Source: Promethearchaeota archaeon
Lineage (GTDB): Archaea > Asgardarchaeota > Lokiarchaeia > Sigyniarchaeales > SOKP01
Assembly (NCBI GenBank): GCA_048941265.1
Contig: JBHLNT010000002.1
Coordinates: forward strand, 20,087-84,086
Reading direction: 5' to 3'
DNA: 64,000 bases
Shown here: positions 55,081-61,042 of the stretch, one piece after another
Layout: each line of letters starts with the position of its first letter
Position numbering within the stretch: position 1 is the stretch's first letter
Program-made: the position numbers and the translations under genes
The notes under the pieces: generated by a model
Database searches by the model: none
What the model was told of the DNA's origin: nothing
Seen by the model: the letters and a program-made list of their open reading frames with translations, nothing else

Positions 55081-56364
55081 TTAAGAAATCAATTTCCTTA
55101 TTTCTGCTGCGACATGTTCGGGCATTTTTCTGGCAACTCTCATATCATCTGCCATTTCAGCCCCACCTATGATTTCATGAGGTATTATATCCCCAAACAA
55201 GTGAAAATCTGCGTCATAACCGTATGGACAACAATTAAATATAATATTACGATTCTCGTCGACATTTAAATCATCTAATGCCTTAAAAATTATTTTTAGG
55301 GATTTGGCTAAATCTTGCATTTGATTAATTTTAAGCTGTGAAAATCTTCGTATATGTTCATTTGGGTGTAATCTGAGATGATAATTTCTTACTGGACTTC
55401 CTGCGACGTAAAAGGTCCAGAATCTGGTTTCTAAGACTATTCTATTCGATTCTCCATGAGTAGTCTCGCATAAATGGCAAGAATCTCCCATTTCTTTAAA
55501 TGCTCTTAAAAATCCTTCTAATCGTGAACCATGTCCGTCCCCATTTAAATCTACATAAACTTGACTATGAATCCGTGGTTGCGAGCCCCCAACTTTGGAA
55601 CCGATATTAAAAAATGGTGAAATTGGAATGTCATAATAATCTCTCTCGACTGCCTCAAGAATACTATATAGAATTGCCTCTTTCATTGAGAGAAAAATAG
55701 CCGTTAGAACTTCTTCAGGAATAAAATCAAATCTTAAAGAAGGGTAAAAATCTCTAGAAACTGTGACTAAATTTATGCCCTCTGCGAGTTTAGAACCCGT
55801 AGGTAACTGTTTTTCTATTAATTGTTTTATATCACGATCCACTATTCGGGCCATTGCTGGATATCTGTTTATCAGAGTGATCGCTTTACAGGAATCGGGA
55901 ATTCTTTTTATTCTATGGGGGGTTTCATGAAATGGTTTATCCCGTTTTTTTTCATCTTCAGTAATAATGATCGTAAATCCATCCCCAATTAGAGCACCTT
56001 CATCATTATAAATGGGTTTACCTTCCATAACGGCCGTGAATACATCCATATCTTCTTTAAATTCTTTTATAGAGATTGCTTTAATTTCACTCTTTTTTTC
56101 TCTAAGATTATAACCTATGGGACGCTTACCGCGAATAGGAGAAAGATAAGCGTAATGGCCGTAATGTCTATCTTGCTTCTTATGCAATCCAAATTCATTT
56201 GTTGAGATCATGGCAGTTGATAATGGGTCCCATCTTTTTAATGGGACATCGTGAATTGATTTAAAATTTTCCTTAGTAATGATTCCCCATTCCATAAATT
56301 TTGGCTTATAACTTTTTCCTAAATTACTATCTTCTTTCTCTGAAATAAAAACACATTCCTCCAT
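55081..56364 (-). CDS. GalT/HIT-superfamily nucleotidyltransferase-like protein (paralogue 2)
   Basis: Same motifs (GGSQPRIHSQ, CHLC, GGAEMAD) with long identical blocks to paralogue 1; probable start is ATT at 56346. Confidence 0.8.
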   Translation of the reverse strand: MEECVFISEKEDSNLGKSYKPKFMEWGIITKENFKSIHDVPLKRWDPLSTAMISTNEFGLHKKQDRHYGHYAYLSPIRGKRPIGYNLREKKSEIKAISIKEFKEDMDVFTAVMEGKPIYNDEGALIGDGFTIIITEDEKKRDKPFHETPHRIKRIPDSCKAITLINRYPAMARIVDRDIKQLIEKQLPTGSKLAEGINLVTVSRDFYPSLRFDFIPEEVLTAIFLSMKEAILYSILEAVERDYYDIPISPFFNIGSKVGGSQPRIHSQVYVDLNGDGHGSRLEGFLRAFKEMGDSCHLCETTHGESNRIVLETRFWTFYVAGSPVRNYHLRLHPNEHIRRFSQLKINQMQDLAKSLKIIFKALDDLNVDENRNIIFNCCPYGYDADFHLFGDIIPHEIIGGAEMADDMRVARKMPEHVAAEIRKLIS

Positions 56365-57269: not shown

Positions 57270-57686
57270 ATACCTATATAAAATTTTAACTTCTGTGGCT
57301 TAATTTGTTAACTATGTATAAGAATTAATTTAGTAATTGTATTTAATAAATCTTATATTTATATTTTTAACACGAATGAAATTAAAAATAAATTTCCCTT
57401 TTTTCACAGGAGAATGAAATAAATCATTGAACAAAAAGTATATCTTGAACAATTTATAGTAAATCTTATTTATATTATAATTATTGTTTAACGGTTTTAT
57501 TTAATCGAGTGACAATTTTTTTTATTCCTAATAAATTCAGAAAAAAATTTTTCCATTATATTTAAAAGAAAAAATGTGCTTAAATTTGAGGTTTAGAGTG
57601 TTTTTCAAAAAATTAACACTTTAATAGTGGCACTTAAATACGTATTAAGATTCTTTGGTAAATCTGTAAATAATTTTAAAAAGATC

Positions 57687-57732
57687 TTTTAATCGGTTGA
57701 TATTAACCCATTAAAAAAACAAGATTTATATA
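57687..57732 (+). promoter_or_regulatory. Inverted repeat (putative operator) next to a BRE/TATA element
   Basis: TTTTAAT-C-GGTT-GATATT-AACC-C-ATTAAAA at 57687-57716, then an A-rich BRE-like stretch and TTTATATA at 57725-57732. Confidence 0.5.
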
Positions 57733-57772
57733 TTATTTCATAATAAAATATATTATAAAAAAAAAGTGATAA

Positions 57773-57987
57773 GGCGACTGAATTAGTCAATTGCAACAAT
57801 ATTTGACCCCGATAGTTATATTTAGGATACTTTCAAATATATCTATGGGGAAGAGTTGGAATTTTTCGAATCCGTACTAATTGTTGCGATTTCAAATTAA
57901 ACGTTGCTAATATAAAAAAATCAATAATGATGAGATATATCAATCTGGTAAATGCATTGAAATTTTCATCCAAGATTGTAATATCTC
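57773..57987 (+). ncRNA. Putative structured 5' leader or small RNA upstream of the RHH gene
   Basis: 12-bp stem 57789-57800/57880-57891, nested CCCC-G-AUAG/CUAU-GGGG and UAUAUUU/AAAUAUA stems, and a second hairpin GAGAUAU..CAAUCUGG/CC.AGAUUG..AUAUCUC at 57932-57987. Confidence 0.5.
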
Positions 57988-58018
57988 TAACAATATTTAT
58001 ATAAAAGGGGTAATAATA

Positions 58019-58309
58019 ATGAAAATAGTCACTGTTAATGTGCCAGAATCATACATCGACGCTATAAATAAATTAATTGGTGAAAATGGTCTCTATCCAT
58101 CCAGATCTGAATTAATTCGATGTGCTGTTAGAGAATTTCTTTTAAAGGAATTAAGATTGGCGAAAAACATACCAGACTACAATAAATCTGATATTGATGA
58201 TTATGATAAGGAAAAATTTGTTCGTGTTCCCATAGTCGATTCAGAAAATAAAAAGGCTCCTGTACAAGAATTCAAAACATATAAAATAATCAAAAGACTC
58301 GAATTTTAA
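58019..58309 (+). CDS. Ribbon-helix-helix (CopG/MetJ/Arc; CdrS-like) transcriptional regulator
   Basis: MKIVTVNVP beta-ribbon and G.YPSRSELIR.AVREFL. Confidence 0.9.
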   Translation: MKIVTVNVPESYIDAINKLIGENGLYPSRSELIRCAVREFLLKELRLAKNIPDYNKSDIDDYDKEKFVRVPIVDSENKKAPVQEFKTYKIIKRLEF

Positions 58310-58443: not shown

Positions 58444-59847
58444 ATGAGCGAACAAAATTTAATTGAAGCATTCATGAATGAACTTCAATTTGATGTAAGT
58501 GACTATTTGGATTCAGAGTTATCCGATTACCAGAAAAAATTAGTTGAAGACGCTACTTTTATAATGCAAGATAATATCGTGGGTGATATCAAAAAATTAG
58601 GGGGGAATTTCCAAAAAAACAGAGAAAAATTTGACAATTTCTTAAAACGAGCTGAAACCGCAATTAAAAATGAGAAATTTAAGGATTCTGAAAAGGAATT
58701 AAAGCAATTTCTTAAAGATTACTCTAAAAAGCTGCAAGAACTTATTGATAAAACTTGTGTTGCTGTAATTCCTGTAAAAGAGCTACCCTGGGTTGATGTA
58801 TTATTTAGAAGTGTTCCTCGCATAGTATTGGATAATAAAAAAATTGAATTACTTGATAATGCAATCGCCTATTATGGGGAAATTAAGTGTGTAATCTCAA
58901 GAACTACTATCTATGGAAAAATTAAGGATGAAAAACCTTTATTTGCACCTTTAATGGGAGAATTAGAATTACAGGGATATAAAATAGATGATTCTCAGCA
59001 AGACAAACCAAAATCTCTTATTTATCTCTATATAAATGCAATTATAGAATCACTCGACTCTTCTTCAACACGGAGCCAATTGGCGAAATACCATGAAGGA
59101 TATCAACGACATGGAGAACCCATATGTGATTTCTTGATGAATGAAACAGAACTCTTAGAGACCATGGAAAAAATTCAAACTGGGTTAGACTCTGGTCGCA
59201 TTAAATCTGACATTTCAGTATGCGGAATTGCTATACCTTTTCCCTCAGATAACACTAGTCTTATAGTACTTTTAGACGAAAGCAAAGATTCAAAAAAATT
59301 TGGAAATTGTTTTGAGGGATTATTAAGATTTTCTGCCGCTTGTTGTAAAGCTCCCTCCACAGGTATAGGAGCAGGCGTAGAAAAACCAGGTCAAGTATCT
59401 CAACAACAATCCGGAGTAATAAGAACTCCTGGTGGCCAAGAATTAAAAGTCTGGACCGCAGAAGAATTGGCAGAAGAAGCTAGTAAAAGAGGAGGAGGAA
59501 TATCGCCAGATATGGATGTTTGGTCTCCGGAAGATTTACAAAAATTAGCTGAAGAGAGGGGGAGTGGGATACCTGAGGGTATGGAAGTGTGGACTCAAGA
59601 AGAATTGACGGAGTTGGCTAAAAAAAGACAAGGAGGCCTAGATATTCCAGAATGGAAACCGGATGATGACTTGATAGAATGTGTGAAGTGTGGTTACAGT
59701 TTAAGAAAAGGATGGTCTGAATGCCCTATTTGTGAGACTCCTGTAGGATCTCAAGGTACTACTGAATCTATCCCAACTTCAGAACCAGAGCCAGATGAAT
59801 CGAATTCTAAAGATCATATCTCAAATGAGAATTCAGAAAATGAATAA
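58444..59847 (+). CDS. Hypothetical protein with three 23-aa tandem repeats and a C-terminal zinc ribbon
   Basis: VW[TS]xE[ED]L..A..R.GG repeats, CVKCG...CPICE and an acidic tail. Confidence 0.8.
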   Translation: MSEQNLIEAFMNELQFDVSDYLDSELSDYQKKLVEDATFIMQDNIVGDIKKLGGNFQKNREKFDNFLKRAETAIKNEKFKDSEKELKQFLKDYSKKLQELIDKTCVAVIPVKELPWVDVLFRSVPRIVLDNKKIELLDNAIAYYGEIKCVISRTTIYGKIKDEKPLFAPLMGELELQGYKIDDSQQDKPKSLIYLYINAIIESLDSSSTRSQLAKYHEGYQRHGEPICDFLMNETELLETMEKIQTGLDSGRIKSDISVCGIAIPFPSDNTSLIVLLDESKDSKKFGNCFEGLLRFSAACCKAPSTGIGAGVEKPGQVSQQQSGVIRTPGGQELKVWTAEELAEEASKRGGGISPDMDVWSPEDLQKLAEERGSGIPEGMEVWTQEELTELAKKRQGGLDIPEWKPDDDLIECVKCGYSLRKGWSECPICETPVGSQGTTESIPTSEPEPDESNSKDHISNENSENE

Positions 59848-60007: not shown

Positions 60008-61042
60008 TTGTTAACTAATATATTTCTCTTCATAGGAAAAAATTTTCAAGACCTAAATCAGCTTAACATTTATGGGTATCCAAATGATATTATCAATTTT
60101 GATGATAAAGATACAATTAGCAAAGTGATTTATGGACATGATCATGGGGATTTAGTCTCGAATTCTAAAATTCTTAATTCTCAATTTTCACCTTCAAGAG
60201 ACCTTAGCAATGTTGAGGGGCTATACTTGATTGACAATCCCATACCCCAAATAATTGATGGTTTAAACATTTACACATCGTGTATTAATGGAAAAATTAT
60301 CATCGGATTAGTATTTGATAAAGAAGATAACCCATATGACTATAAAGATATTTTTAATGAACTTTTAGATGAGCTTTTAAATGTTGAGAAATCTTGTGCT
60401 TTTGAGGATGAGATAGAAATTGAAAACTTTTTAATTACGATTTTTATAGATATCAGAAGATTTGGAGATGAGCAAGTAGAAAGACGTCCTCAAATTGAAT
60501 TTCGATATCAGGAATCCTTTATAAAAGTATTTTTATTTGGAATTGATGATGTGGGAAAATCCTCGTTAGTAAGAAGAATCAAAACAGGTGAATTTAATGA
60601 TAACTACTTCATGCCCACTAAAAAATTCTCTATTGATTATGTTCAAGCTGAAGAAAAAGGATTCTTGGCTTTTTGGGATATGCCTGGACAACGTTCATTT
60701 CGGAAGAAGTGGCTTATTGGCCTCCAAGATTCTAACATCGTAATTTATATGATTGATGTGGCAAATCAAAGAAGGTTTGAAGAATCAAAAAAAGAATTTT
60801 GGAAAATAATAAATAGGTATGATTTACTCGGAATTCCTGTGTTGATATTGGCAAACAAGATTGATTTAATTCAACATTCAGATGAAATTACGAAAGAACA
60901 ATCTGAAAAATTAAAGAATGAAATTATCACTTACTTTGAATTTGATAAAATTCAAAATAGAGAATGGAAATTTCTTTTTACATCCGTCAAGACGAAATTT
61001 AATATCGAGACAGTTATGAAAGAAATATTTGACTTAATATAA
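60008..61042 (+). CDS. Ras-superfamily small GTPase (Arf/Rag-like) with an N-terminal ~170-aa extra domain (longin/roadblock-like)
   Basis: G1 GIDDVGKS, G2 MPT, G3 WDMPGQ, G4 NKID and G5 TSVK; TTG start. Confidence 0.88.
   Translation: MLTNIFLFIGKNFQDLNQLNIYGYPNDIINFDDKDTISKVIYGHDHGDLVSNSKILNSQFSPSRDLSNVEGLYLIDNPIPQIIDGLNIYTSCINGKIIIGLVFDKEDNPYDYKDIFNELLDELLNVEKSCAFEDEIEIENFLITIFIDIRRFGDEQVERRPQIEFRYQESFIKVFLFGIDDVGKSSLVRRIKTGEFNDNYFMPTKKFSIDYVQAEEKGFLAFWDMPGQRSFRKKWLIGLQDSNIVIYMIDVANQRRFEESKKEFWKIINRYDLLGIPVLILANKIDLIQHSDEITKEQSEKLKNEIITYFEFDKIQNREWKFLFTSVKTKFNIETVMKEIFDLI

What the first reader, a model, noticed from the sequence alone, without database searches (positions are those of the whole stretch)
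57773..57987. Highly base-paired ~215-nt non-coding element in front of the RHH regulator
Seen: AAUUGCAACAAU (57789-57800) pairs over 12 bp with AUUGUUGCGAUU (57880-57891), including one G-U. This encloses a long inner stem (CCCC-G-AUAG-U-UAUAUUU ... AAAUAUA-U-CUAU-GGGG) and a small GGA..UUCG..UCC hairpin, forming a three-way junction. GGCGAC (57773) can pair with GUUGCU (57903). A second long hairpin spans 57932-57987, about 30 nt before the start codon. The G-U pairs favour the + strand, a TATA box lies just upstream, and there is no sizeable ORF. Inference: an unannotated cis-regulatory leader (riboswitch-like or protein-binding) or a small RNA.
Basis: partly seen in the sequence, partly recalled or inferred. 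Interest (0 to 1): 0.7.

Follow-up and report, generated by a model that had tools for sequence, protein, structure and literature searches.

The report
Folded leader made from duplicated gene start
The strongly base-paired stretch in front of this archaeal regulator gene is real, but it is the decayed remains of duplicated copies of the gene's own beginning, reshaped into stable RNA hairpins inside a long leader, not a recognisable riboswitch or small RNA gene.

Summary
All helices lie where stated, and the fold beats dinucleotide shuffles (z -4.08 for 215 nt, -4.57 for 57773-57910). Rfam, tRNA and repeat searches found nothing, and the element is single-copy in its genome.

Comparing 110 orthologous loci changed the interpretation. 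The stretch between the conserved promoter and the start codon is colinear with the RHH gene's own 5' UTR plus about 40-46 codons. It is a pseudo-copy (psi1, 57773-57910) with the start lost and stops inside. A second, shorter relic (psi2) holds hairpin 2.

The parent coding regions are unfolded (z -1.3 to +2.0, 0 of 13 at -2 or below). The relic domains are folded in 12 of 13 lineage representatives. G-U pairs outnumber A-C (23 to 7), and hairpin 2 covaries (6 compensatory pairs).

I found no structure shared by all lineages, no conserved SD masking and no second copy, so a riboswitch is not supported. Most likely this is a lineage-specific structured 5' leader born from partial tandem duplication. 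Transcription is not shown.

The parts
57687..57716 (.). Adjacent palindrome TTTTAATCGGTTGAT/ATTAACCCATTAAAA just upstream of the promoter. Candidate operator; this is inference.
   Evidence: I10, 15-nt arms, 87% complementary, no spacer. The right half, ATATTAACCC..TAAAAAA, recurs in orthologous promoters.
57718..57733 (+). Distal promoter core, A-rich BRE-like stretch plus TATA box TTTATATA (57726-57733). The predicted start of transcription is near 57755; this is inference from the usual archaeal spacing, recalled.
   Evidence: A TYTAWAYA box lies 44-56 nt upstream of GGCG in 27 of 34 long-leader loci, and 49-63 nt upstream in 44 of 48 short-leader loci.
57773..57910 (+). Element 1, relic psi1. 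A decayed copy of the RHH 5' UTR (GGCGAyUG) plus about 40 codons, folded as a three-way junction.
   Evidence: Fold z -4.57. blastx of the G000 leader, nt 18-83, against RHH aa 3-23: 'IATIFDPDSYI*DTFKYIYGEE' / 'IVTVNVPESYI-DAIQKLVGEK', E 0.09, colinear. Close homologues give E 0.002-0.028. Best profile offset -2 of 81 tried.
57773..57778 (+). P0 5' strand GGCGAC, which pairs with 57903-57908 GUUGCU.
   Evidence: MFE; unpaired probability 0.02. Other lineages close the domain with other sequences: L042 GCGAC:GUCGC, L012 GGCGAU:GUGUUGCC.
57789..57800 (+). P1 5' strand AAUUGCAACAAU (pseudo-codons 3-6), paired with 57880-57891.
   Evidence: I20. 85% of cells paired in 5 type-A sequences, no compensatory pair.
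57808..57850 (+). P2 long hairpin. Its 5' strand holds the relic of codons P-E-S-Y-I (AGUUAUAUUUAGG).
   Evidence: I6. 91.8% of cells paired, 1 compensatory pair. The motif AGUYNNAUUUAGG lies 44-47 nt from GGCG in 13 of the 37 leaders listed, and at 39-63 nt in eight more.
57854..57878 (+). P3 small hairpin (GGA..UUCG..UCC).
   Evidence: 84% of cells paired in type A. Absent from L042 and from the more distant leaders.
57880..57891 (+). P1 3' strand AUUGUUGCGAUU (pseudo-codons about 32-36, L-I-x-A-I).
   Evidence: In L011 the relic reads 'SELIFAIL' against RHH 'SELIRCAV'.
57903..57908 (+). P0 3' strand GUUGCU.
57927..58004 (+). Relic psi2, with a 25-codon frame MMRYINLVNALKFSSKIVISLTIFI* and no SD in front. 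It ends 14 nt before the true ATG.
   Evidence: 'YINLVNAL' against RHH 'YIDAINKL' (E 6.6, weak). By my reading of the sequences, the same frame is open in G003 and L039 (28 codons) and cut to 5 codons in L042.
57932..57987 (+). Hairpin 2, inside psi2.
   Evidence: I11. In 4 sequences, 84.2% of cells are paired (0 of 500 shuffles reach this). 6 pairs changed on both sides (2 of 500). Slid controls give 35-49% paired.
57989..58003 (+). AACAATATTTATATA, a repeat of the promoter core AACAAGATTTATATA (57718-57732). This is the 'second TATA'.
   Evidence: D1, 14 of 15 identical, spacing 271. The TATA's 3' end is only 16 nt from the ATG. It is not TATA-like in L039.
58006..58012 (+). SD-like AGGGGUA in front of the true start.
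   Evidence: Sequence. Relatives have GAGGUG or GGUG at the same place.
58019..58309 (+). Intact RHH regulator gene (96 aa), the parent of the relics.
   Evidence: Pfam RHH_1, 2e-08. Best NCBIfam hits are CdrS (5.3e-09) and aCcr1 (0.0013), both below cut-off. Orthologue found in 41 of 41 related genomes.

Best explanation
The element is the non-coding remains of partial tandem duplications of the RHH gene's own 5' end.

A first duplication put a copy of the 5' UTR plus roughly the first 40-46 codons (psi1, 57773-57910) between the original promoter and the intact gene. In the G000 / G003 / L039 / L042 lineage a second, shorter copy (psi2, about 57911-58004) followed. Both copies lost their coding capacity. 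psi1 has no start and carries stops.

The copies have since been reshaped into self-contained stem-loops on the sense strand. These are the three-way junction P0-P3 and hairpin 2.

Transcribed from the conserved distal promoter, they form a 5' leader of about 245-265 nt for a CdrS/aCcr1-like regulator.

The likely working (inferred): by folding on itself, the relic is kept from being translated into a truncated N-terminal RHH fragment. It is also kept from pairing with the true ribosome binding site. As a stable structured leader it probably also sets the mRNA's stability or translation level.

Shown: the structure, its homology to the gene, the gain of folding relative to the parent sequence, and the strand bias.
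Inferred: transcription from the distal promoter, selection for folding, and any regulatory effect.
For: Origin.
- blastx of leaders against RHH N-termini gives colinear matches. L011 nt 12-149 against aa 1-46 in one frame with one stop (E 0.008); L039 aa 5-33 (0.002); L010 aa 1-33 (0.028); G000 aa 3-23 (0.09); L045 (0.007); L014 (0.019).
- Control: a best hit at E<=0.1 that is also colinear occurs in 6 of 19 real leaders and in 1 of 380 shuffled leaders.
- A nucleotide profile of 46 short-leader genes hits leaders on the diagonal in 12 of 18 hits.
- The best of 81 ungapped offsets lies within 3 of zero in 11 of 27 leaders.
- Duplication seen in progress: L032 has a 72-nt tandem copy, 92% identical. 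L039 repeats AAAAAAGTGATAA, GTAATAAT and ATATTTCTGAAT at spacings of 154, 89 and 144. The window repeats its promoter core at a spacing of 271.

Folding gained.
- Relic domains reach z <= -2.05 in 12 of 13 lineage representatives: G000 -4.57, L042 -4.86, L066 -5.34, with L045 the exception at -0.86.
- The functional 5' regions of 13 genes give z -1.26 to +1.98 (0 of 13 at -2 or below). The fresh relic in L032 gives +1.27.

Sense-strand RNA.
- The plus-strand MFE is lower than the minus-strand MFE in 26 of 30 leaders.
- On G000's structure, the four relatives have 23 G-U against 7 A-C cells.
- Hairpin 2 has 6 compensatory pairs, reached by 2 of 500 shuffles.

Binding site left free.
- The SD and start are at least as unpaired as with shuffled leaders in 14 of 18 leaders.

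Promoter.
- A conserved TATA lies upstream of GGCG in 27 of 34 long-leader loci and 44 of 48 short-leader loci.
Against: - No transcript data. No RNA run was listed, so the start of transcription is not known. A repeat of the promoter core lies just before the ATG.
- Within the five type-A sequences, element 1 shows only 1 compensatory pair and is no better than shuffles (275 of 500). P1 has a mismatch at the same pair in G003 and G007.
- A MAFFT alignment of 15 lineages gives no consensus structure.
- Whole-leader z is <= -2 in only 13 of 30 leaders.
- I chose the domain limits for after seeing the folds, which favours low z.
- Element 1 (70-87% identity to relatives) is not better conserved than the flanking non-coding DNA (60-94%), though it is better conserved than third codon positions (64-73%).
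- The lineages are related, so the counts are not independent.
- The tree cannot say whether the long leader arose once.
Confidence: 0.55

Rival explanations
1. Neutral junk. The relics of duplication are simply decaying, and the hairpins come from mutational processes such as template switching at quasi-palindromes in AT-rich DNA. The RNA, if it is made, has no role.
For: - Leader length and architecture vary widely, 82-276 nt.
- There is no cross-lineage consensus structure.
- Element 1 has only 1 compensatory pair.
- Its conservation is no higher than that of neighbouring non-coding DNA.
- The minus strand of G000 also folds well (z -3.0).
Against: - Neutral decay should give z near 0, as in the parent regions and the fresh relic. 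Instead 12 of 13 relic domains are at <= -2.05.
- Template switching makes perfect Watson-Crick arms. Here G-U outnumbers A-C 23 to 7, and the plus strand folds better than the minus in 26 of 30 leaders.
- Hairpin 2 covaries.
Confidence: 0.22
2. A true regulatory switch. The leader binds a ligand or a protein, or senses temperature, and toggles translation. One possible design is the three-part set in psi2: a pseudo-SD (5' strand of hairpin 2), an anti-SD-like UAUCUCU (57982-57988), and the real SD.
For: - With the CDS included, G000's MFE pairs UAUCUCU with AGGGGUA. The SD then has an unpaired probability of 0.28 and the AUG 0.18.
- In G003 the pseudo-SD GAGGUGUA is identical to the real SD.
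- The 3' strand ..UCUCUAAU is kept in 4 of 4 sequences.
- The three-way junction with a long closing stem resembles aptamer architecture.
Against: - Binding-site accessibility is not lower than with shuffled leaders in any of 18 leaders. G000 gives 0.32 against 0.35, and the lowest shuffle fraction is 0.13.
- The alternative pairing follows automatically from the SD duplication.
- There is no Rfam hit, no conserved unpaired core, and a single copy in the genome.
- G007 lacks psi2 altogether.
Confidence: 0.12
3. The feature acts at the DNA level. The duplicated promoter-proximal segments add binding sites for the RHH autoregulator (or form cruciforms), and the conservation reflects operators, not RNA.
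For: - GGCGAyUG next to the promoter is kept in long and short leaders alike.
- aCcr1 boxes lie between the TATA and the start codon in Sulfolobales (PMC9976878, abstract and passages).
- The promoter core is repeated at 57989.
Against: - G-U over A-C and the plus-over-minus asymmetry point to RNA.
- The helices change sequence between lineages while staying paired, which an operator would not.
- No repeated box motif was identified inside the relics.
Confidence: 0.07
4. An independent small RNA gene, or a C/D-box-like sRNA around hairpin 2.
For: - AUGAUGA (57927-57933) matches a C box, and CUGA occurs at 57778-57781.
- The G+C content is a little above that of the flanks.
Against: - The C-box-like heptamer is not kept: L039 has AUGAGGA and L042 UUAUGAG.
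- There is no D box at the 3' end, no Rfam sno or sRNA hit above chance, and no obvious terminator or own promoter.
- The stretch is colinear with the gene's 5' end.
Confidence: 0.04

Closest known systems
Structured cis-acting 5' leaders of prokaryotic mRNAs (riboswitches, ribosomal-protein leaders, RNA thermometers)
   Same: It is a long, strongly folded, non-coding stretch between a promoter and a ribosome binding site. It favours the sense strand, and part of it has compensatory changes.
   Different: - There is no match to any of 4227 Rfam models.
- There is no conserved unpaired core or common architecture across lineages.
- There is one copy per genome.
- There is no conserved SD masking.
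- Its sequence descends from the downstream gene's own coding region.
5' UTR stabiliser stem-loops such as the E. coli ompA leader (recalled, not tested here)
   Same: Stable helices sit near the 5' part of a long leader and leave the binding site open. This is a plausible effect on mRNA life-time.
   Different: The predicted transcript start lies about 18 nt upstream of the first helix, so the 5' end itself may not be paired. No decay data exist. The archaeal RNases differ.
Gene-fragment pseudogenes from partial tandem duplication
   Same: It is colinear with the neighbouring parent gene, has lost its start and carries stops. A fresh example is present in another genus (L032: 72 nt, 92% identical).
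   Different: Here the relic sits inside the transcription unit of the surviving copy. It has gained folding stability well beyond the parent's, which ordinary decay does not predict.
CdrS / aCcr1 ribbon-helix-helix cell-cycle regulators (PMC7439475 and PMC9976878, passages read)
   Same: The downstream gene is a small RHH protein whose best NCBIfam hits are CdrS and aCcr1. Regulatory sequence between the TATA and the start codon is a theme at aCcr1 targets.
   Different: - The scores are below the curated cut-offs: 35.9 against 100 bits, and 18.6 against 60.
- The protein has a 45-aa C-terminal extension.
- No ftsZ lies beside it; the two FtsZ genes are on other contigs.
- No structured leader came up in the passages I read of these papers.

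Membership tests
Any Rfam family (riboswitch, leader, sRNA, ribozyme) | Covariance-model score at or above the family's gathering threshold | tested here: not met
   There were 0 matches in the 64-kb window at gathering. With E up to 10 on 57300-58100 there were 4 matches of 14-17.5 bits, against thresholds of 34-73.
Riboswitch-like regulatory leader | A conserved ligand-binding core and architecture shared across diverged lineages | tested here: not met
   RNAalifold on 15 lineage representatives predicted 0 pairs. The CM of type A scores other lineages at only 13-27 bits. P3 is absent outside type A.
Riboswitch-like regulatory leader | Recurrence upstream of several functionally linked genes | tested here: not met
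   CM R1 finds 1 real match in the 5.0-Mb genome. The other two have E above 5. BLAST finds 1 match.
Riboswitch-like regulatory leader | An expression platform that masks the SD or start, or forms a terminator | tested here: inconclusive
   An anti-SD pairing exists in G000. Binding-site accessibility is not below the shuffled-leader expectation in 0 of 18 leaders, and is higher than the shuffled mean in 14 of 18.
C/D box sRNA | Conserved C (RUGAUGA) and D (CUGA) boxes at the ends | tested here: not met
   AUGAUGA is present in G000 and G003 only. L039 has AUGAGGA and L042 UUAUGAG. There is no 3' CUGA.
tRNA / tmRNA | Cloverleaf detected by ARAGORN | tested here: not met
   0 genes in the window.
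MITE or other dispersed repeat | Multiple copies in the genome | tested here: not met
   It is single-copy by BLAST and by CM.
Gene-fragment pseudogene (partial tandem duplicate of the RHH gene) | Colinear sequence similarity to the parent gene beyond chance | tested here: met
   Against shuffles, 6 of 19 real leaders and 1 of 380 shuffled leaders have a colinear best hit at E<=0.1.
Gene-fragment pseudogene (partial tandem duplicate of the RHH gene) | Disabling changes (lost start, stops, frame breaks) and a position next to the parent | tested here: met
   The relic reads contain stops. No ATG occurs at the old start position in the leaders printed. The longest + strand frame in psi1 is 29 aa from a TTG. 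The relic lies directly upstream of the intact gene.
CdrS / aCcr1 family (for the downstream gene) | Score above the NCBIfam equivalog cut-off | tested here: not met
   CdrS 35.9 bits against a cut-off of 100; aCcr1 18.6 against 60. Pfam RHH_1 is met, 34.3 against 20.5.
CdrS / aCcr1 family (for the downstream gene) | Synteny with ftsZ2 (CdrS) | tested here: not met
   The two Tubulin/FtsZ-family genes of the genome are on contigs C212 and C341, not on C258.

The most novel reading that the evidence does not exclude
The relic has been domesticated into a working riboregulator of a cell-cycle-type RHH regulator in an Asgard-like archaeon. It would be a regulatory RNA born de novo from the gene's own duplicated coding sequence. 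The pseudo-SD, the anti-SD and the real SD of psi2 (and perhaps the 25-28-codon relic frame that ends 5-14 nt before the true start) would set translation in response to a protein, a ligand or temperature. The psi1 junction would control mRNA life-time.
Probability: 0.12. Interest if true: 0.7.

Novelty: new variant of a known kind. Interest (0 to 1): 0.42.

Why it matters
If the reading is right, this locus records how a structured mRNA leader can arise. Several stages are still visible in related genomes:

- a fresh 92%-identical duplicate that is unfolded (L032);
- older relics that have lost coding capacity;
- relics that fold far better than their parent sequence.

This makes the origin of structured non-coding RNA from coding sequence testable at one locus. 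The gene concerned resembles the RHH regulators that time cell division in other archaea, and the lineage probably belongs to the Asgard group. That placement is inferred from an Arf-family GTPase nearby and was not tested by taxonomy.

The case is also a caution for RNA-motif screens. A strong fold z-score and local conservation upstream of a regulator need not mean a riboswitch.

Tried and rejected
- Rfam at gathering and at E<=10: nothing above chance.
- ARAGORN: no tRNA.
- C/D box reading of AUGAUGA at 57927: the box is not conserved.
- Dispersed repeat or MITE: single copy.
- Conserved SD sequestration: not supported. The G000 anti-SD pairing is explained by the SD duplication.
- Cross-lineage consensus fold on a MAFFT alignment of 15 leaders: 0 pairs. 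No structural aligner was available.
- nhmmer E-values for leader against gene are individually weak (0.00014 to 5 on a database of about 5 kb). I relied on colinearity and on the shuffle control instead.
- Covariation within the five type-A copies of element 1: no better than shuffles.
- Group B (7 sequences): helices mostly invariant, 2 compensatory pairs.
- RHH protein tree to count origins: only the quick tree finished. The long-leader label needs between 4 (forced by well-supported branches) and 16 changes, so the number of origins is unresolved.
- RNA evidence: no RNA holder was listed, and read laying was not used.
- Literature: searches for 'CdrS'+'Asgard', 'Lokiarchae'+'non-coding RNA'+'riboswitch' (1 paper, on rRNA expansion segments) and Asgard/leaderless/Shine-Dalgarno terms brought up no description of this leader in the listings I saw. 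I did not read those papers in full.
- GGCGAU as the ancestral SD: dropped. An AGGU lies further upstream in short-leader genes.
- A 5'-terminal protective role for P0: dropped, because the predicted transcript start lies about 18 nt upstream of GGCG.

Full report
**1. The observation**

- 57789-57800 pairs with 57880-57891 (12 bp, one G-U).
- 57808-57823 pairs with 57835-57850.
- 57932-57946 pairs with 57973-57987.

The minimum-energy fold of 57773-57910 is the described three-way junction, closed by GGCGAC:GUUGCU. Folding is well beyond chance. The 215 nt give -52.4 kcal/mol against -36.2 +/- 4.0 for 200 dinucleotide shuffles (z -4.08, 0 as good). The 138 nt give z -4.57. The reverse strand folds less well (-44.8, z -3.00). 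The largest + strand frames are 29 aa (TTG) and 25 aa (ATG). Rfam gives nothing at gathering thresholds in the whole window and only chance-level hits at E<=10. ARAGORN finds no tRNA.

**2. Setting**

The window is contig C258 of a 5.0-Mb, 361-contig, AT-rich archaeal assembly. The element lies in a 750-nt spacer between two divergent genes. Downstream is a 96-aa ribbon-helix-helix protein (Pfam RHH_1, 2e-08). Its best NCBIfam hits are the cell-division regulators CdrS (5.3e-09) and aCcr1 (0.0013), both far below cut-off. The genome's two FtsZ-family genes are on other contigs. An Arf-family GTPase lies 2 kb downstream. That suggests an Asgard-type archaeon, but this is my inference and was not tested.

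**3. Relatives**

BLAST with 57760-58020 finds full-length homologues in only 2 of 40 other related genomes. These are G003 (72% identity) and G007 (81% over the first 137 nt). It finds one copy in G000. The RHH protein is found in 41 of 41 genomes and in 130 metagenome stretches, of which 80 were kept.

In these 110 loci a conserved promoter block is followed by the word GGCG[AG].
- In 51 loci that word lies 10-14 nt before the start codon ('short').
- In 34 loci it lies 42-274 nt before it ('long'). This group includes all 9 genomes of the window's genus that have the gene.
- In 25 loci it is absent, or the contig is cut.

**4. What the leader is made of**

A covariance model of the five closest leaders aligned some short-leader genes from GGCG into their coding sequence. 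That prompted a direct test.
- A nucleotide profile of 46 short-leader genes (GGCG to codon 60) hits the long leaders on the same diagonal in 12 of 18 hits. The E-values are individually weak, 1.4e-4 to 5.
- In an ungapped scan of 81 offsets, the best offset is within 3 of zero in 11 of 27 leaders. For G000 it is -2, z 3.4.
- blastx of the leaders against RHH N-termini gives colinear alignments:
  - L011 (G007), nt 12-149, against aa 1-46 in one frame with one stop: 'LTIATIFVPYSCI*DSSEYIYWKGLELFNSELIFAILKTHSFKTPK' over 'MKIVTVNVPESYIDAINKLIGHKGLYPSRSELIRCAVREFLIKELK' (E 0.008);
  - L039 (0.002);
  - L010 (0.028);
  - G000 'IATIFDPDSYI*DTFKYIYGEE' over 'IVTVNVPESYI-DAIQKLVGEK' (0.09);
  - L045 (0.007);
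  - L014 (0.019).
- With 20 dinucleotide shuffles of each of the 19 leaders, a colinear best hit at E<=0.1 occurs in 1 of 380. It occurs in 6 of 19 real leaders.

The recurrent motif AGUYNNAUUUAGG lies 44-47 nt from GGCG in 13 of the 37 leaders listed, and at 39-63 nt in eight more. It is the relic of codons E-S-Y-I-D.

Element 1 is therefore a pseudo-copy (psi1) of the gene's 5' UTR plus about 40-46 codons.

A second relic (psi2) follows in G000, G003, L039 and L042.
- G003 still reads GGUGUAAUUAAAUG-AAAAUUGU ('MKIVSNN').
- L039 repeats AAAAAAGTGATAA, GTAATAAT.. and ATATTTCTGAAT at spacings of 154, 89 and 144.
- The window repeats its promoter core AACAAGATTTATATA as AACAATATTTATATA, 271 nt downstream.

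Hairpin 2 lies in psi2. G007 has psi1 only. The process is caught fresh in another genus: L032 has a 72-nt tandem copy of the first 24 codons at 92% identity.

**5. Is the folding more than a by-product?**

Evidence for:
- The functional 5' regions (136 nt) of 13 RHH genes, among them the intact copies of G000, L039, G003 and G007, give z -1.26 to +1.98. None is at -2 or below. The fresh relic in L032 gives +1.27.
- The relic domains give z <= -2.05 in 12 of 13 lineage representatives: G000 -4.57, L039 -3.87, L042 -4.86, L010 -2.45, L011 -3.38, L041 -2.69, L012 -3.68, L013 -2.79, L014 -3.09, L056 -3.71, L097 -2.05, L066 -5.34. L045 is the exception at -0.86.
- The plus-strand MFE is lower than the minus-strand MFE in 26 of 30 leaders, with 2 ties and 2 reversed.
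- On G000's structure, the four relatives carry 23 G-U and 7 A-C cells.
- Hairpin 2, in 4 sequences, has 84.2% of cells paired (0 of 500 shuffles reach this). It has 6 pairs changed on both sides (2 of 500). Slid controls give 35-49% paired and 0-1 such pairs.
- In per-sequence folds laid on the relic's codon frame, pseudo-codons 2-6 and 10-14 are 5' strands of helices in 9-15 of 15 lineages, with many pair types. The apex falls at pseudo-codons 15-16. That table leans on folds of domains I delimited.

Caveats and evidence against:
- I set the domain ends after seeing the folds. On whole leaders, with no such choice, z is <= -2 in 13 of 30 on the plus strand and in 5 of 30 on the minus strand.
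- Element 1 in the five type-A sequences is 87.8% paired, but has 1 compensatory pair and is no better than shuffles (275 of 500).
- Group B (7 sequences) has 18 consensus pairs, of which 2 are compensatory.
- A MAFFT alignment of 15 lineages gives no consensus fold.
- Element 1 is 70-87% identical to its relatives. Third codon positions are 64-73% identical, and neighbouring non-coding DNA 60-94%.

**6. Tests of a switch**

The element is single-copy in its genome by CM search. With 30 nt of CDS added, G000's best fold pairs UAUCUCU (57982-88, the 3' strand of hairpin 2) with the SD AGGGGUA. The SD then has an unpaired probability of 0.28. Because the 5' strand of hairpin 2 is a copy of the SD region, this alternative pairing comes with the duplication. 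Over 18 leaders, the SD and start are never less accessible than with shuffled leaders (lowest shuffle fraction 0.13). They are more accessible than the shuffled mean in 14 of 18. A relic frame of 25 codons (57927-58004) is open in G003 and L039 too (28 codons, ending 5 nt before the start). It is cut to 5 codons in L042 and has no SD in front; this is my reading.

**7. Reading**

Most likely this is a lineage-specific, structured 5' leader built from duplicated and disabled copies of the gene's own beginning. Folding on itself would do three things:
- keep the relic from being translated;
- keep it from pairing with the true binding site;
- make a compact leader that may tune mRNA stability or translation.

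The origin is well supported. Transcription from the distal promoter, selection for folding, and any effect on expression are inferred. No RNA run was listed for this sequence. The repeat of the promoter core just before the ATG leaves a proximal start site possible, although its TATA is only 16 nt from the ATG and is not kept in L039.

Rivals are neutral decay with mutational hairpins, a true riboregulator, DNA-level operators, and a separate sRNA.

**8. Comparison and novelty**

It works like other structured 5' leaders, but it meets none of the tested criteria for a riboswitch or for any Rfam family. It does meet the criteria for a gene-fragment pseudogene. The passages I read on aCcr1 (PMC9976878) and CdrS (PMC7439475) place regulatory DNA boxes between the TATA and the start codon, and describe wide conservation of CdrS. 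In the passages I read, no structured leader came up. My literature searches turned up no account of this element in their listings. I rate it a new variant of a known kind. It is of moderate interest, mainly as a staged example of a structured leader arising from coding sequence.

Noticed in passing
window 57687-57716: An adjacent 15-nt palindrome, TTTTAATCGGTTGAT/ATTAACCCATTAAAA, lies directly upstream of the BRE/TATA. Its right half (ATATTAACCC..TAAAAAA) recurs in most orthologous promoters. It is a candidate operator of the RHH.
   Followed up: partly
window 57606-57635: There is a direct-repeat-like pair, AACACTTTAATA / GCACTTAAATA. It is conserved as TTAATACTTTAATAA.TAATACTTAAATA about 100 nt upstream of the TATA in other genera.
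   Followed up: no
L032:1418-1572 (G016): A fresh tandem duplication of the first 24 RHH codons: 72 nt, 92% identical, spacing 83. The upstream copy keeps its ATG, and the downstream copy begins with ATT. The relic is unfolded (z +1.27).
   Followed up: partly
L031 (G013), 182 nt and 11 nt upstream of the start: The whole promoter plus GGCGATT is present twice in tandem. The upstream copy is followed by ATG-TGA.
   Followed up: no
short-leader loci, e.g. L023:1490-1512, L060:992-1012: GGCGAUU can pair with codons 3-4 (AAUUGUY / AAUCGUG), which puts the start codon in a 7-nt loop. This hairpin is in the MFE of L023, L020, L018, L060 and L052. The third base of the Ile codon varies U/C/A, so constraint is unclear.
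   Followed up: partly
window 58005-58140 and 12 orthologous regions: The functional translation-start regions of the RHH genes fold no better, and often worse, than shuffles (z -1.26 to +1.98).
   Followed up: yes
window 58444-59847: A 467-aa ORF with no Pfam family. It has three repeats of the kind 'VWTAEELAEEASKRGGG' and a C-terminal CxxC...CxxC motif.
   Followed up: no
window 60008-61042: An Arf-family small GTPase (PF00025, 1.6e-27) with an N-terminal extension of about 170 aa.
   Followed up: no
window 55081-56364 (- strand): A 427-aa protein with weak HIT / GalT-like matches, below the curated cut-offs.
   Followed up: no
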